From a virus, in UHGV virus genome UHGV-0093871: a stretch of 12,947 bases of DNA, one strand, 5' to 3'. Positions 3,055 to 6,345 of the stretch are shown one piece after another. Below the pieces are notes generated by a model. That model ran no database searches and had not been told where the DNA came from. It saw only the letters and a list, made by a program, of their open reading frames with translations. Each line of letters starts with the position of its first letter. Position 1 is the first letter of the stretch. The position numbers and the translations under genes were made by a program.

Positions 3055-3080
3055 ATCTATAAAACGTCGGTTTAGGATAC
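3055..3080. other. gix/hix-like crossover site C (inverted relative to sites A and B), core TC on plus = GA on minus at 3067-3068
   Basis: atctatAAAACG-TC-GGTTTAggatac resembles the Gin/Hin/Cin/Pin site pattern (..AAACC NN GGTTT..). A TAA stop (3060-3062) lies in the outer half-site and the cassette frame opens at 3063. Confidence 0.55.
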
Positions 3081-4130
3081 GGCACCAAAGCGGGCACTGT
3101 AGCCCAGGGAAATGATGAAAGGCTGAACACCGTCAATGGTAAATCAGGAGGAAATGTTACCGGCAGTTTGATGGTAACTCAGGGTAGCAGCATTGGCGTA
3201 TCTACTCAGGAAGGTGGTGATAAGACTGTAAAGCTATACAACATTACAGGGGATGGGACTGTCGGAAGTTATGTAAACGCCGTGGGAGGTGCCTGGTATA
3301 ACGGGAACTGGTCTCTTGGCGGCGTTCGGGGGAGTGGGACTAATTTAGACAGAGCGCAGTTAAATGTTAATAGCGGAACTGGTACCGCGGGTTCATTTTT
3401 ATTTTACCCCGATGAGAGATTCAAATCATCTTCGTGTGGAGCTGATGGGGCTGGTTATGGTGGCTCATGGTCAGACATTAACACATGGCAAAGAAATATC
3501 TCTTTTTTCCGAGGTAACGTATCAGTTAATAATGATGCAGGGTTTATTCCCTTTGCCCGTTGGCATAGTCAATGCAGTGGTGGATATTCTTCAACAGTAG
3601 GGCTTGGTTCTATAGCTACCGGGCCTAGTTCGTGGGCGGATGTAGCAATAACAACGCTCGGGGATGGTGGTTCTGCCGGGCAACGTATATTTCAATTCAC
3701 GACAGCAAACGGTGATATATACGCTAACGCTGGTGGAAATATTTCCGGTAACTATATTTTCCAGAAGCAGCCTAACTGTGACATTACGCTGAAGCACGAT
3801 ATTAAATATGATGATGGTTATCAGTCATACGAGAATATCAAAAAATTTCTGCCAGCAACTTACGTCTACAATGATGACCCTCGTGAGAGAGTTCGCCGAG
3901 GCGTAATTGCTCAGGACGCGATGAAGATTGACAGTGAGTACGTCAAACTGGTACCTGCATCACCGGCGTTCGACAGTGAAGGCAACAGGATTGATGCTGA
4001 TGATACGTTGGCGCTTGATACGAACGTCATTATGCTTGATACCGTGCTGGCCCTGAATTACGTCATCAAGAAGCTGGAGGCTACACAGAACGAGCTGGAG
4101 GAGATTAAGCAAAAAATAGCGGCATCATGA
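3063..4130 (+). CDS. Silent alternative tail-fibre C-terminal cassette C (353 aa after the core); promoterless, with a C-terminal intramolecular-chaperone-like domain
   Basis: The frame opens directly after TAA at 3060-3062 and encodes NVGLGYGTKAGTVAQGNDERLNTVNGKSGG, homologous to the junction peptide of cassettes A and B. The body is homologous to cassette B (TVNGKSGG, W/Y-rich block, LDRAQLNV, SFLFYPD). The C-terminus FLPATYVYNDDPRERVRRGVIAQDAMKID... is chaperone-like. No RBS or start context at the cassette start. Confidence 0.7.
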   Translation, partial: NVGLGYGTKAGTVAQGNDERLNTVNGKSGGNVTGSLMVTQGSSIGVSTQEGGDKTVKLYNITGDGTVGSYVNAVGGAWYNGNWSLGGVRGSGTNLDRAQLNVNSGTGTAGSFLFYPDERFKSSSCGADGAGYGGSWSDINTWQRNISFFRGNVSVNNDAGFIPFARWHSQCSGGYSSTVGLGSIATGPSSWADVAITTLGDGGSAGQRIFQFTTANGDIYANAGGNISGNYIFQKQPNCDITLKHDIKYDDGYQSYENIKKFLPATYVYNDDPRERVRRGVIAQDAMKIDSEYVKLVPASPAFDSEGNRIDADDTLALDTNVIMLDTVLALNYVIKKLEATQNELEEIKQKIAAS

Positions 4131-4146
4131 ATCCTGAGCATTCAAC

Positions 4147-4177
4147 TGCAGCCCGTTCCGGAAAATTACGGGCTGCA
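4147..4177. terminator. Perfect 9-bp inverted repeat between the convergent cassettes C and B; possible bidirectional terminator or protein-binding dyad
   Basis: tgcagcccg (4147-4155) pairs with cgggctgca (4169-4177), with a 13-nt loop that contains the palindrome ttccggaa. No T-tract on either side. Confidence 0.3.
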
Positions 4178-4183
4178 AATTAT

Positions 4184-4944
4184 TCAGCTTCCTTGTTCCA
4201 GTTTTTCAACCTTACTCGTCAAATTATCGACCCTAACCATTAGGGCCAGAATTGCCTCATGGTGCAAAGCTGCAGCAACCCCGTAAGTATCGACAGTTTT
4301 CACATCAGGAATAATAGTTCCGTCCTCCAGAGTAATATCATAGCCACCTTTAACAGCTTCGGGAAATACTTGCTCAACGTCCTGTGCAATAAAGCCGTAA
4401 CCAGTGGTTTCATTGTCTATACGCTCCCAAAAGCAGCCTTTAATGGCTTTCATCTTTGTGAGAGGATCGGATATGCGCGCGATGTCTTTTTTTATACGCG
4501 CATCTGAGAGTGATACCCATTGACCACCAGTGCCACGACCATCTGGGTAAAACATAAATGATGCTGCTGCCCCTCCAGATTCTGCCACCACATTTAACTG
4601 AACACGATCAAGTGGGGTAGAGCCGCTACGTATTGCACCAAACGCCCATGAACCGCTATACCACTTACCAATTATCTGATTAACATAATTCCCCTGAGAT
4701 GGATCAGTGGTCGTATTATTCATCTCAATGGAGTTATCACCGCCACTTCCCTTTCTGACCCCTAAACCACCACCGGCATTTGTATGCCAGTCAGTTGCTC
4801 CGCCGCCAACACCGTTGATTGTCACAGCAGATGAAATCGTTCCTCCTGATTTTCCGTTCACCGTACCCATGCGTGAATCATCCCCGGCCGCCACCGTTCC
4901 CGCCGCCGTTCCAACGTTCCTGGTGGCGCTGTTTCCCAAACCGA
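4184..4944 (-). CDS. Silent alternative tail-fibre C-terminal cassette B (252 aa after the core) with a peptidase S74-type intramolecular chaperone domain
   Basis: Begins at the crossover core immediately after the stop of cassette A (TAA = reverse complement of 4948-4950). Encodes GLGNSATRNVGTAAGTVAAGDDSR then ...WVSLSDARIKKDIARISDPL (Ser-Lys dyad motif SDxRxK) and a C-terminal chaperone-like segment. No ATG or RBS of its own. Confidence 0.7.
4875..4944. repeat. 70-bp perfect direct repeat, copy 1 (cassette-B side of crossover site B)
   Basis: Identical to 5771-5840. Identity ends exactly at the GA core (4943-4944). Confidence 0.9.
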
Positions 4945-4956
4945 CCTTTATTCACC
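4931..4956. other. gix/hix-like crossover site B (same orientation as A); outer half-site degenerate
   Basis: gtttcccAAACC-GA-CCTTTAttcacc. The inner half is identical to site A; the outer half has CC where GG is expected and contains the stop codon of cassette A. Confidence 0.45.
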
Positions 4957-6345
4957 TTCATCCGTAGCCATTGCGAGCTCTGCGGCCCTGATTTTTTTGT
5001 TGTATAAAGAATCGGCAGGCATTTCGACACGGACGGACACAAACTGGTCACGCGGAATGTCGACCGGATCGCCATCGCTGATACCCTGCAGCTCGTTCCT
5101 GGCGAATGCAGGCGCGCCAGGATGTGTTCGATGATAGGTTTGCACCAGCACAGAACCATCAGCGTTTACTTCGTAATCCAGCCAGATAAGCGGTTGTTTA
5201 TTGCGGTCGGTGGGGATGTCGAAACCGCCATCAATACCTCCCCAGGCCGCATCAGAGTTAAGTCCCTCACACCCTTCAACAAGATATTTTCCCCTAGCCA
5301 AGCGGGTTACAGTACAGCCTTCTGATTCGTCGTTAAGCTGGCATGAACCATCCCTGAACAACTTGATAATTGGAGAGGCAGCTTTCAACGTACCGTCTGA
5401 TGCCCGAGTCGTGTTTCCAGTGTGGTAAAGCTTCATCCAGCCAGTGTCGACACCATCAGCCATCCCCATAAATTGAATGACTTTTCCGCTAAGGATCAGG
5501 GCGGCAAAGGATTGTTGCGCAGCAGACGTGGCCCCACTGCCAACATTTCGGTCCGAGAATCTGATACCTGAACCATACATACCCGGCCCACCTGACGTGG
5601 TAGGAGAGACGTTACAGAAGCGCGTTCCATGACTTTTATCCCAGATGTCGCCGATTACTGGTAAAATTTTTGAACCTACGCCAAATGACCCCGTTATCAG
5701 CACATTTCCTTCACCCTCACCAGTATCTTTTGTTGCTGCACTTCCTAATTTGGCAATCTTATCGAATCGCGAATCATCCCCGGCCGCCACCGTTCCCGCC
5801 GCCGTTCCAACGTTCCTGGTGGCGCTGTTTCCCAAACCGAGGTTTGCGCGAGCGTCAGCTTCGGTCTTTGCCCCAGTCCCGCCCTGTGCAATAGACAGCG
5901 CAGTAGTGAGCCCTTTCAGCTCGGTGATATCGCTGTTGGACCCCTTTCTGGCAAGCGCGCCAATACTTGGAATATTAACGGAGGTTCCGTTGATGGTAAC
6001 GGTGATGGTCTGGTTTGCTGAGGTAGTGGCGAACGTCTCCCACGCGCCAATGTTCTCGTCATACTCTTTGATAAGCTGCGACATCGCCTGTGCCAGTCCG
6101 TCGACAGAGATGTTGTCGGACACCAGTATTCCATACTTCTGGCGGCTCAGCGCCGGGGAAGCAGCAGGCGTAACCGTCATTGACGTGGCGCTGTTCACAG
6201 ATGAAATCTGGAACATCTGCACCGGGTTAGACATGACGATGATCGTCTGGCCAGCGCGGACCTGGCTGGCCGGTGACGTCCAGTTTGTGCCCGTCCCGGT
6301 GGCGGTATTTCCGTTAATTGCGATAGTGCCAGTGTTATAGAGCAT
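4948..6345 (-). CDS. Tail fibre protein, expressed form: 169-aa constant N-terminal part fused to cassette A (465 aa total)
   Basis: ATG at 6345 with GGAG 5 nt upstream; the track start at 6360 is an alternative TTG. Gly/Thr-rich fibre-like sequence (MLYNTGTIAINGNTATGTGTNW...). The junction peptide ANL/GLGNSATR... spans crossover site A. Confidence 0.8.
   Translation of the reverse strand: MLYNTGTIAINGNTATGTGTNWTSPASQVRAGQTIIVMSNPVQMFQISSVNSATSMTVTPAASPALSRQKYGILVSDNISVDGLAQAMSQLIKEYDENIGAWETFATTSANQTITVTINGTSVNIPSIGALARKGSNSDITELKGLTTALSIAQGGTGAKTEADARANLGLGNSATRNVGTAAGTVAAGDDSRFDKIAKLGSAATKDTGEGEGNVLITGSFGVGSKILPVIGDIWDKSHGTRFCNVSPTTSGGPGMYGSGIRFSDRNVGSGATSAAQQSFAALILSGKVIQFMGMADGVDTGWMKLYHTGNTTRASDGTLKAASPIIKLFRDGSCQLNDESEGCTVTRLARGKYLVEGCEGLNSDAAWGGIDGGFDIPTDRNKQPLIWLDYEVNADGSVLVQTYHRTHPGAPAFARNELQGISDGDPVDIPRDQFVSVRVEMPADSLYNKKIRAAELAMATDEGE
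5771..5840. repeat. 70-bp perfect direct repeat, copy 2 (cassette-A side of crossover site A)
   Basis: Identical to 4875-4944; flanking bases differ immediately on both sides. Confidence 0.9.
5827..5852. other. gix/hix-like crossover site A inside the expressed fibre gene, core GA at 5839-5840
   Basis: gtttcccAAACC-GA-GGTTTgcgcgag. The central 12 bp AAACCGAGGTTT match the gix core as I recall it; the two half-sites form an imperfect palindrome (8/12). Confidence 0.55.

What the first reader, a model, noticed from the sequence alone, without database searches (positions are those of the whole stretch)
3055..5852. Three-cassette tail-fibre switching locus with gix/hix-like crossover sites and in-frame fusion geometry
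Seen in sequence: three sites share the pattern AAAC(C/G)-GA-GGTTT/CCTTT, at cores 5839-5840 (A), 4943-4944 (B, same orientation) and 3067-3068 (C, inverted). The core always forms the last two bases of a Leu/Val codon, so exchange at the core fuses the 169-aa constant N-terminus in frame to cassette A (now), B or C. Each silent cassette frame opens immediately after a stop codon that sits inside the outer half-site, and neither has an RBS. Established knowledge: Gin/Hin/Cin/Pin serine invertases act on 26-bp sites with this AAACC-NN-GGTTT core and switch phage tail-fibre C-termini (Mu G segment, P1 C segment, e14 P segment, p15B Min). Inference: this is a multi-site inversion system; A x C inversion would express C, and a second inversion would bring B into the expressed position.
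Basis: partly seen in the sequence, partly recalled or inferred. Interest (0 to 1): 0.85.

Follow-up and report, generated by a model that had tools for sequence, protein, structure and literature searches.

The report
Orphaned three-cassette tail-fibre inversion switch
This is a genuine Gin/Hin-type DNA-inversion switch that lets a lambda-like E. coli prophage choose among three tail-fibre tips, but in this copy an insertion sequence has replaced the invertase gene and the prophage is a 12-kb wreck, so it is most likely a frozen relic of a known kind of system.

Summary
Three sites with the core AAACC-GA-(G/C)(G/C)TTT lie at 5834-5845, 4938-4949 and 3062-3073 (inverted); chance expects 0.02. 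The core is codon positions 2-3 of Leu/Val169 in all three frames, and in-frame stops precede both silent cassettes.

The interpretation as a Din-family (Gin/Hin/Cin/Pin) multi-site tail-fibre inversion module is right. E. coli relatives carry the same three cassettes (97.5-99.8% nt identity) in every other predicted permutation. Their recombinant junctions fall inside TCGGTTT at exactly these sites, including the degenerate site B. A database protein of 522 aa equals the predicted constant-C fusion, with the cassette part 354/354 identical.

Every relative has a 182-187 aa Gin-like invertase about 70 bp beyond the far site. In the window, that gene, and with it the stretch that holds the recombinational enhancer in P1 cin, is replaced by a 2,656-bp ISL3-family element with no target-site duplication. 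The surrounding prophage, in the intS-dsdC island, has lost its heads, lysis genes and most tail genes.

The switch here is therefore probably locked in the A-expressing state. It is a new member of a known kind and of modest interest.

The parts
5827..5852 (-). Site A: the 26-bp crossover site at the constant/variable junction of the expressed tail-fibre gene (GTTTCCCAAACC GA GGTTTGCGCGAG on the + strand; core 5839-5840).
   Evidence: 16.4 bits, rank 2; core = positions 2-3 of Leu169, CTC. The orthologous site is recombinant in L012, L016, L017 and CX21.
4931..4956 (-). Site B: an internal crossover site in the same orientation as A, between the end of cassette a and the start of cassette b (GTTTCCCAAACC GA CCTTTATTCACC; core 4943-4944). 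Its outer half-site is degenerate and contains the stop codon of cassette a.
   Evidence: (1.4 bits; inner half 9.2, outer half -7.8). In L012 the same outer half (gaatAAAGG) is joined to the start of cassette c, so this site does cross over within TCGGTTT.
3055..3080 (+). Site C: the far crossover site, inverted relative to A and B (ATCTATAAAACG TC GGTTTAGGATAC; core 3067-3068).
   Evidence: (18.3 bits, rank 1). In L012 and L017 its outer half (ctataAAACG) is joined to the start of cassette a.
5841..6345 (-). Constant N-terminal part of the side tail-fibre gene (residues 1-168 plus the first base of codon 169). The start is ATG 6345, with GGAG 7 nt upstream.
   Evidence: The same N-terminus is fused to b-type (P0001, P0009, P0013) and c-type (P0122) cassettes in other genomes.
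4948..5840 (-). Cassette a, currently expressed: residues 169-465 with a Phage_tail_C_2 domain; stop codon TAA at 4948-4950.
   Evidence: PF25670, E 1.8e-58. The exact 465-aa protein occurs on 7 contigs. It lies silent and inverted next to the invertase in L012 and L017 at 98.6% and 98.0% identity.
4184..4944 (-). Cassette b, silent and in direct orientation: 253 codons from the junction Val codon, with a Peptidase_S74 intramolecular-chaperone domain.
   Evidence: PF13884, E 4e-13. It is 85-97% identical over its full length to the C-terminal parts of 411-421 aa full-length tail fibres. It is expressed in L012 and in the L018-L022 group of loci.
3067..4130 (+). Cassette c, silent and inverted: 354 codons from the junction Val codon, with a Peptidase_S74 domain.
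   Evidence: PF13884, E 3.5e-9. It is 354/354 identical to the C-terminal part of P0122 (522 aa), which equals the predicted constant-C fusion. It is expressed in L016 and L017.
4872..4949 (.). 78-nt direct repeat, copy 1 (its partner is 5768-5845). It encodes the shared cassette start GLGNSATRNVGTAAGTVAAGDDSR.
   Evidence: 96% identity.
3015..3054 (.). Remnant of the leader between the far site and the lost invertase gene. Homology to invertase-bearing relatives starts at 3015, which is 26 nt upstream of where the invertase ATG lies in them.
   Evidence: window 3015-3200 matches L020 5845-6030 at 100%.
359..3014 (+). ISL3-family insertion sequence with terminal inverted repeats GGGTATTCGGGA. 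It carries a transposase (1613-2935) and a passenger ORF6N/P22AR antirepressor-like gene (699-1598), and it occupies the place of the invertase gene.
   Evidence: Other copies have 8-bp duplications (CATTAATG, GTTTTATG), whereas here the flanks are AAATTATT and AAAAATCA. One search shows that it replaces 584 bp of L020.
1..358 (+). 3' end of the prophage integrase gene intS (1-124) plus a spacer. In relatives this spacer runs up to the stop codon of an invertase gene.

Best explanation
The locus is the invertible tail-fibre module of a lambdoid (phi80/HK022/N15-type side-tail-fibre) E. coli prophage. It belongs to the Din family of serine-invertase systems (Gin/Hin/Cin/Pin/Min).

In intact relatives a 182-187 aa Gin-like invertase is encoded about 70 bp outside the far site. 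It exchanges DNA at the central GA/TC of three 26-bp sites. Because A and B point one way and C the other, inversions A x C and B x C (and their successors) generate four isomers: (+a+b-c), (+a+c-b), (+c-b-a) and (+b-c-a). These fuse one constant 168-residue N-terminus in frame to one of three receptor-binding C-termini. The conserved peptide N-(L/V)-G-L-G is simply the recombination site read as protein. Two of the cassettes (b and c) carry their own Peptidase_S74 intramolecular chaperone in place of a separate assembly gene.

Shown: the sites, the frames, the isomers and the junctions in relatives, and the loss of the invertase gene here.

Inferred: in this window the switch is frozen in the (+a+b-c) state. 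An IS-associated deletion removed the invertase gene together with the 5' coding stretch that carries the cis-acting Fis enhancer in hin and cin. The switch also has no phage left to serve, since the island between intS and dsdC retains only fragments of the tail genes.
For: 1. Site statistics and resemblance to published Din sites (PMC3241671 Table 3).

2. Clonal E. coli isolates CX15, CX07 and CX21 differ only by inversions bounded by the orthologous sites. In CX07 versus CX21 the flanks swap between AAAC(G/C) and GGTTT(g/a), with only 12-15 nt of shared identity.

3. L012 carries the window's own cassettes (97.5% and 98.6% nt identity) in the order +b,-c,-a. Its junctions are const|b, a-end(AAAGG)|c-start and far(AAACG)|a-start. 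L017 and L016 are +c,-b,(-a). L019 is +a,+c,-b.

4. P0122 equals the predicted constant-C fusion in length (522 aa), and the cassette part is 354/354 identical. Full-length constant-b proteins exist.

5. The adjacent recombinase in relatives hits Mu Gin with E 2e-87 over residues 1-181. It is present in all 9 non-window places displayed and.

6. tblastn and blastn find no invertase in the window. L020 holds both window flanks around a single invertase gene. Those 584 bp are replaced by the IS, which lacks the 8-bp duplication seen at two other copies.

7. [quoted passage not shown] The P1 record annotates it at nt 19-90 of cin, where fin is 53-54/72 identical, similar to gin at 55/72.

8. All 5 IS-bearing contigs, and the 2 other contigs that carry the exact tail-fibre protein, show the same a-b adjacency.

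9. Prophage decay: L is truncated to 113 aa, J to 590 aa and the tape measure to 155 aa; K and I are absent. The right flank holds ead/Ea22-like genes, DUF551, torI and dsdC.
Against: Nothing argues against the identity of the module. Several points argue against 'frozen':

- Din invertases cross-complement. Fin acts on the H segment (the Kutsukake 2006 paper cited in PMC4272514), and PinQ, PinR and PinE all invert the e14 P segment (PMC12529663). E. coli genomes often carry such genes elsewhere, and the rest of this genome is not available.
- Both silent cassettes are fully intact, and L016 is 99.8% identical to the window across them. The lock is therefore recent, and no decay supports it.
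- The 5 same-state contigs may be a single clone.
- The enhancer position in fin is inferred from cin and hin, not demonstrated.
Confidence: 0.8

Rival explanations
1. The locus is still an active switch in its host, driven in trans by a Din-family invertase encoded by another prophage. A fortuitous Fis site or an enhancer-independent activity would substitute for the lost enhancer.
For: All three sites and all three cassettes are intact. Cross-action of invertases is documented in E. coli (PMC12529663; the Kutsukake 2006 paper cited in PMC4272514).
Against: Wild-type Din invertases need a cis enhancer (PMC2724282), and the homologous stretch is deleted. A pinE deletion leaves the e14 P segment locked although PinQ and PinR are present (PMC12529663). 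Every contig with the IS is in the same state.
Confidence: 0.15
2. The repeats are relics of duplication or of general homologous recombination between tail-fibre genes, not site-specific recombination sites.
For: A and B share 78 nt. This is long enough for RecA-dependent exchange, and tail-fibre genes are notoriously mosaic.
Against: Crossovers in CX07/CX21, L012 and L017 join partners that share only AAAC(C/G)TCGGTTT. For example, the a-end is joined to the c-start, which diverges from the b-start immediately after GGTTT. A Gin-like invertase is always adjacent. The sites are the two best Din-PWM hits in the window.
Confidence: 0.02
3. The tail-fibre gene of this remnant has been kept by the host for a non-phage role, for example interference with adsorption of other phages as reported for e14 Stf proteins. 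Loss of the invertase would then fix the useful variant.
For: The 465-aa ORF is identical on 7 contigs from at least two differently decayed remnants. PMC12529663 reports that inversion products of a cryptic prophage tail-fibre module inhibit T2 adsorption.
Against: There is no direct evidence. A strong terminator sits just upstream of the gene (6387-6366) and no late-gene activator is left in the island. The identity across contigs may only reflect recency.
Confidence: 0.05

Closest known systems
Three-site tail-fibre 'shufflon' of a P2-like prophage in EPEC E2348/69 (Goldberg et al. 2014, PMC4272514)
   Same: Three partially homologous sites, two overlapping inversions, four isomers and three alternative C-termini for one tail-fibre gene. 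The isomers co-exist.
   Different: That system lies in a myovirus (P2-like) module with separate tail-fibre assembly genes and has its invertase. The window's module is lambdoid, cassettes b and c carry Peptidase_S74 self-chaperones, and the invertase is deleted.
Escherichia phage LLS tail-fibre inversion module with invertase 'Fin' (PQ299149.1; PMC12315714)
   Same: It is a direct homologue. The constant region is 95% and cassette c 91% identical at the nucleotide level. The annotated IR-L and IR-R are the same sites, and the invertase lies 72 bp beyond the far site.
   Different: LLS has two cassettes and two sites, is a viable phage, and its switching was only proposed, not tested. The window has three cassettes and three sites, no invertase and a dead prophage.
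Mu G segment/Gin, P1 C segment/Cin, e14 P segment/Pin
   Same: A serine invertase of the same family (Fin versus Gin E 2e-87). The sites are 26 bp with an AAACC-NN-GGTTT centre, and the core GA matches gix. The crossover lies inside the tail-fibre ORF, so a constant N-terminus receives alternative C-termini. The invertase gene is adjacent.
   Different: Those systems have two sites and two states. Each of their cassettes includes a separate chaperone gene (U/U', tfa). Here there are three sites, the cassettes are single ORF fragments, and the recombinase and enhancer are missing.
Min multiple-inversion system of plasmid p15B
   Same: More than two crossover sites in both orientations shuffle tail-fibre C-terminal cassettes. 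The outer half-sites are degenerate (CGTTTT...), like sites B and C (PMC3241671 Table 3).
   Different: Min has six sites and many more isomers, uses core AA, and lies in a P1-like plasmid prophage.

Membership tests
Din-family (Gin/Hin/Cin/Pin/Min) serine-invertase DNA inversion system | 26-bp crossover sites with imperfect dyad symmetry, AAACC-NN-GGTTT centre and identical 2-bp cores at all partner sites | tested here: met
   All three sites have core GA. Scored with a PWM built from the published sites, sites C and A reach 18.3 and 16.4 bits, ranks 1 and 2 in the window and comparable to hixR and mix. Site B has one good half-site only, like hixR (PMC3241671).
Din-family (Gin/Hin/Cin/Pin/Min) serine-invertase DNA inversion system | At least one pair of sites in inverted orientation flanking the invertible DNA | tested here: met
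   C is inverted relative to both A and B.
Din-family (Gin/Hin/Cin/Pin/Min) serine-invertase DNA inversion system | A small serine recombinase (about 180-190 aa, Resolvase + HTH_7, catalytic Ser near residue 9-10) encoded at the locus | tested here: not met
   No match in the window (tblastn with Fin, best E 0.46). Relatives have one. Here the gene is replaced by an IS. The window therefore holds the substrate of such a system, not a complete system.
Din-family (Gin/Hin/Cin/Pin/Min) serine-invertase DNA inversion system | Cis-acting Fis-dependent recombinational enhancer, normally in the 5' coding part of the invertase gene | tested here: not met
   The stretch homologous to the annotated Cin enhancer (nt 19-90 of the CDS) lies inside the deleted 584 bp (PMC2724282). 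Whether another Fis site could substitute is not testable with these tools.
Din-family (Gin/Hin/Cin/Pin/Min) serine-invertase DNA inversion system | Strand exchange at the central dinucleotide, seen as alternative isomers with reciprocal junctions | tested here: met
   This was met in orthologous loci, not in this copy. The crossover maps within TCGGTTT in CX07/CX21, L012, L016 and L017. All 7 contigs of the window's own type are in one state.
Invertible phage tail-fibre (host-range) switch | Constant N-terminal tail-fibre segment fused in frame to alternative C-terminal receptor-binding cassettes by the inversion | tested here: met
   The predicted fusions are open. P0122 equals the constant-C fusion. 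P0001, P0009 and P0013 are constant-b fusions. Pfam assigns tail-fibre domains to all three cassettes.
Invertible phage tail-fibre (host-range) switch | Belongs to a phage able to build virions that display the fibre | tested here: not met
   The island from intS to dsdC is about 12 kb. L, J and the tape measure are truncated, and K, I, and the head, terminase and lysis genes are absent.

The most novel reading that the evidence does not exclude
The invertase was not lost by accident. IS-mediated excision of the recombinase and enhancer may be a recurrent way by which hosts 'lock' a domesticated prophage tail-fibre gene in one variant that serves the cell, for example by blocking adsorption of competing phages as claimed for e14 StfE/StfP. 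Alternatively, the orphan sites could remain a substrate for invertases of incoming phages, coupling the state of a cryptic locus to superinfection.
Probability: 0.07. Interest if true: 0.6.

Novelty: new member of a known kind. Interest (0 to 1): 0.3.

Why it matters
The mechanism holds little that is new. Tail-fibre inversion switches, including three-site versions, are textbook or published, and the direct homologue is annotated in phage LLS.

The locus is useful in three ways:

- It gives a clean natural data set. The window, CX15, CX07, CX21, L012, L016, L017 and L019 together show all four isomers of a three-site lambdoid switch, with crossovers mapped to 7 nt. This includes a site with only one good half-site.
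- It shows that the module occurs in lambdoid side-tail-fibre genes whose cassettes b and c use Peptidase_S74 self-chaperones in place of separate assembly genes.
- It documents how such a switch dies: the invertase gene, which carries the enhancer in hin and cin, is replaced by an IS inside a decaying prophage.

For annotation, it warns that 'tail fiber domain-containing protein' fragments next to an IS may be silent cassettes rather than pseudogenes.

Tried and rejected
- I searched the window for an invertase with tblastn (Fin query) and blastn (relatives L001 and L002). There was no significant hit, so an overlooked recombinase ORF, such as the 188-aa ORF at 10900-11466, is rejected.
- I asked whether the IS was a simple insertion into an otherwise intact locus. 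It is not: there is no 8-bp duplication, and 584 bp are missing relative to L020.
- I scanned JGI metagenome contigs for the exact IS/leader junction, to look for other isomers carrying the IS. There were 0 hits, so this was uninformative.
- I tried to read Johnson's review under a PMC id recalled from memory. It is not held. The enhancer statements were taken instead from PMC2724282 and the P1 GenBank annotation.
- The promoter/terminator scan of 2900-6800 gave promoter-like hits at background level. The only strong terminator lies upstream of the tail-fibre gene, and the hairpin between the ends of cassettes c and b (about 4140-4172) did not meet the terminator criteria.
- Homologous recombination through the 78-nt repeat was considered as the source of the isomers. 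It is rejected because junctions form between partners that share only the 12-nt core.

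
Full report
**Observation**

The window carries a tail-fibre gene on the minus strand (ATG 6345 to TAA 4948, 465 aa). The motif AAACSGASSTTT occurs three times, at 5834-5845 and 4938-4949 on the plus strand and at 3062-3073 on the minus strand. Chance expects 0.02, and 0 of 200 shuffles give three matches.

Sites A and B end a 78-nt direct repeat that is 96% identical, and site C is an inverted partial copy. 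The core supplies bases 2-3 of Leu169 (CTC) at A and of a Val codon (GTC) at B and C. In-frame TGA and TAA codons lie two to three codons upstream of B and C, inside the outer half-sites. Joining the constant part to either silent cassette at the core gives uninterrupted ORFs of 421 aa (b) and 522 aa (c).

I built a position weight matrix from the Din-family sites tabulated in PMC3241671. It ranks C (18.3 bits) and A (16.4 bits) first and second among all 26-mers of the window, on a par with hixR and the p15B mix sites. B scores 1.4 bits because only its inner half-site is good.

**What it is**

BLAST against complete E. coli genomes and phages showed homologous loci. Phage LLS (PQ299149.1) has the same constant region and cassette c, annotated IR-L and IR-R at the same sites, and a 'serine-type DNA invertase Fin' 72 bp beyond the far site. 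Its authors proposed Mu/P1-like switching (PMC12315714). LLS Fin matches Mu Gin over residues 1-181 with E 2e-87.

Three clonal isolates, CX15, CX07 and CX21, have a three-cassette version at one chromosomal site. They differ only by inversions bounded by the orthologous sites. Between CX07 and CX21 the outer halves (ctataAAACG and cgcacAAACC) stay in place and the inner halves (GGTTTggg and GGTTTagg) swap. The exchange therefore occurred within TCGGTTT, where the partners share only 12-15 nt.

The closest relatives came from protein look-ups.

- **L012** (E. coli GCA_017759085.1) has the window's own three cassettes at 97.5% and 98.6% nucleotide identity, in the order +b,-c,-a, followed by a 182-aa Resolvase/HTH_7 gene. 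Its junctions are const|b-start, a-end(AAAGG)|c-start and far(AAACG)|a-start. The b-start and c-start diverge immediately after GGTTT. This shows that even the degenerate site B recombines site-specifically and not through the 78-nt homology.
- **L017** is +c,-b,-a with the invertase.
- **L016** is the intact-tail version of the same phage as the window (100% identity over window 9441-10531 and 99.8% over 3061-4912) and expresses c. Its product P0122 has exactly the predicted 522 residues. All ten differences from the predicted fusion lie in residues 18-168, and the cassette part is 354/354 identical.
- **L019** is +a,+c,-b.

Together with the window's +a,+b,-c, all four isomers expected from two direct sites and one inverted site are found in nature. 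The three alternative C-termini match the logic shown experimentally for a P2-like prophage in EPEC (PMC4272514). Cassette a has a Phage_tail_C_2 domain. Cassettes b and c each have a Peptidase_S74 intramolecular-chaperone domain. No separate assembly gene is present.

In every relative examined, a 182-187 aa invertase gene lies next to the far site. The window has none.

Homology to the relatives begins at window 3015, which is 26 nt upstream of the position of the invertase ATG. To the left lies a 2,656-bp ISL3-family element (359-3014). It has terminal repeats GGGTATTCGGGA, a transposase gene and an ORF6N/P22AR passenger gene. Two other copies of this IS are flanked by 8-bp duplications (CATTAATG in adiY, and GTTTTATG). 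In the window the flanks are AAATTATT and AAAAATCA.

Locus L020 contains both window flanks around a single invertase gene. Window 146-358 matches L020 5047-5260 at 92.5%, and window 3015-3200 matches L020 5845-6030 at 100%. The 584 bp between these flanks in L020 are what the IS replaces; they comprise the CDS minus its last 5 nt plus 25 nt of leader. The invertase was therefore removed by an IS-associated deletion, or by recombination between two IS copies.

[quoted passage not shown] It is annotated at nt 19-90 of cin in the P1 record. The fin genes are 53-54/72 identical to cin there, much as gin is at 55/72. That stretch is gone too. That fin's own enhancer lies in this stretch is inferred from homology, not shown.

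**Context**

Window 1-124 is the 3' end of intS. The right end holds ead/Ea22-like genes, DUF551, torI and dsdC. The whole argW-dsdC prophage island is therefore only about 12 kb. Relative to L016, 3.5 kb are deleted at window 9441/9442, which covers the C-terminus of L, K, I and the N-terminal half of J. Only the last 155 codons of the tape-measure gene remain. No virion can be made.

All five IS-bearing contigs, and the two other contigs that carry the exact 465-aa protein, show the same a-b adjacency. This is consistent with a locked state, although they may represent one clone.

**Mechanism and confidence**

That the locus is the DNA substrate of a Din-type three-site tail-fibre switch is, in my judgement, established (about 0.97). 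That this copy is now frozen in the a-expressing state is an inference (about 0.8).

The inference rests on the loss of both the enzyme and the enhancer, and on the precedent that deleting pinE locks the e14 P segment even with PinQ and PinR present (PMC12529663). The main rival is trans-activation by an invertase encoded elsewhere in the genome, which I could not examine. The silent cassettes are still intact, so the loss is recent.

**Novelty**

This is a new member of a known kind. The direct homologue is annotated (LLS), multi-site tail-fibre inversion is published (p15B Min; EPEC), and tail fibres are a recognised major target of programmed inversions (PMC9881135).

Three points are mildly new: the complete natural isomer series for a lambdoid three-cassette module, crossover at a site with only one good half-site, and the documented death of the switch by replacement of its invertase gene with an IS.

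Noticed in passing
window 359-3014: An ISL3-family element of unusual size (2,656 bp) that carries a passenger gene with ORF6N and P22AR C-terminal (antirepressor-like) domains upstream of the transposase. It is mobile in E. coli: strain GMM060 has 14 places matching the IS-containing query (window 1-3100), one of them an insertion in adiY with the duplication CATTAATG.
   Followed up: partly
window 9441/9442: A deletion junction inside the tail operon. Relative to L016, 3.5 kb are missing, and the first ~110 codons of the L gene abut the distal half of J (590-aa ORF 7729-9501).
   Followed up: yes
L020 5256-5819 (E. coli GCA_049823745.1); also L009 1927-2475: The invertase genes next to these modules are mosaics. 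L020's product is Fin-like for residues 1-64 and then identical to the P2-like-prophage invertase of strain ABWA45, with the switch at the conserved VVWKLDR motif. This suggests recombination within invertase genes, just after the enhancer region.
   Followed up: partly
L007 and L008 (junction at window 8188): Two other metagenome contigs carry the identical 465-aa tail fibre in a differently decayed remnant, where a terminase large-subunit gene abuts the last 142 codons of J. Both contigs end at or shortly past the 78-nt repeat at site B (L007 inside it, L008 34 nt beyond it).
   Followed up: partly
window 6366-6387 (- strand): A strong intrinsic terminator (9-bp GC-rich stem followed by a T7 run) lies between cor (6406-6639) and the tail-fibre start codon. 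Expression of the fibre presumably needs antitermination, and the remnant no longer encodes that function.
   Followed up: no
L020, L023, L024, L025, L027: Two-cassette (b, c) versions of the module, carrying the 100% identical cassette-c ORF, sit in prophages at several different chromosomal sites (bio/ybhB, yciI/tonB and others). The module travels between lambdoid prophages as a unit. A two-cassette form could arise from the three-cassette form by deletion between the direct sites A and B.
   Followed up: no
window 4131-4183: The 53-bp spacer between the convergent ends of cassettes c and b contains a 9-bp inverted repeat (GCAGCCCGT...ACGGGCTGC) with an 11-nt loop. It may be a shared transcription stop, but it was not called by the terminator scan.
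   Followed up: no
window 12148-12348 and 1-124: The remnant keeps intS and torI, the integrase and excisionase pair of the KplE1/CPS-53 locus, at its two ends. The 12-kb island might therefore still be excisable.
   Followed up: no
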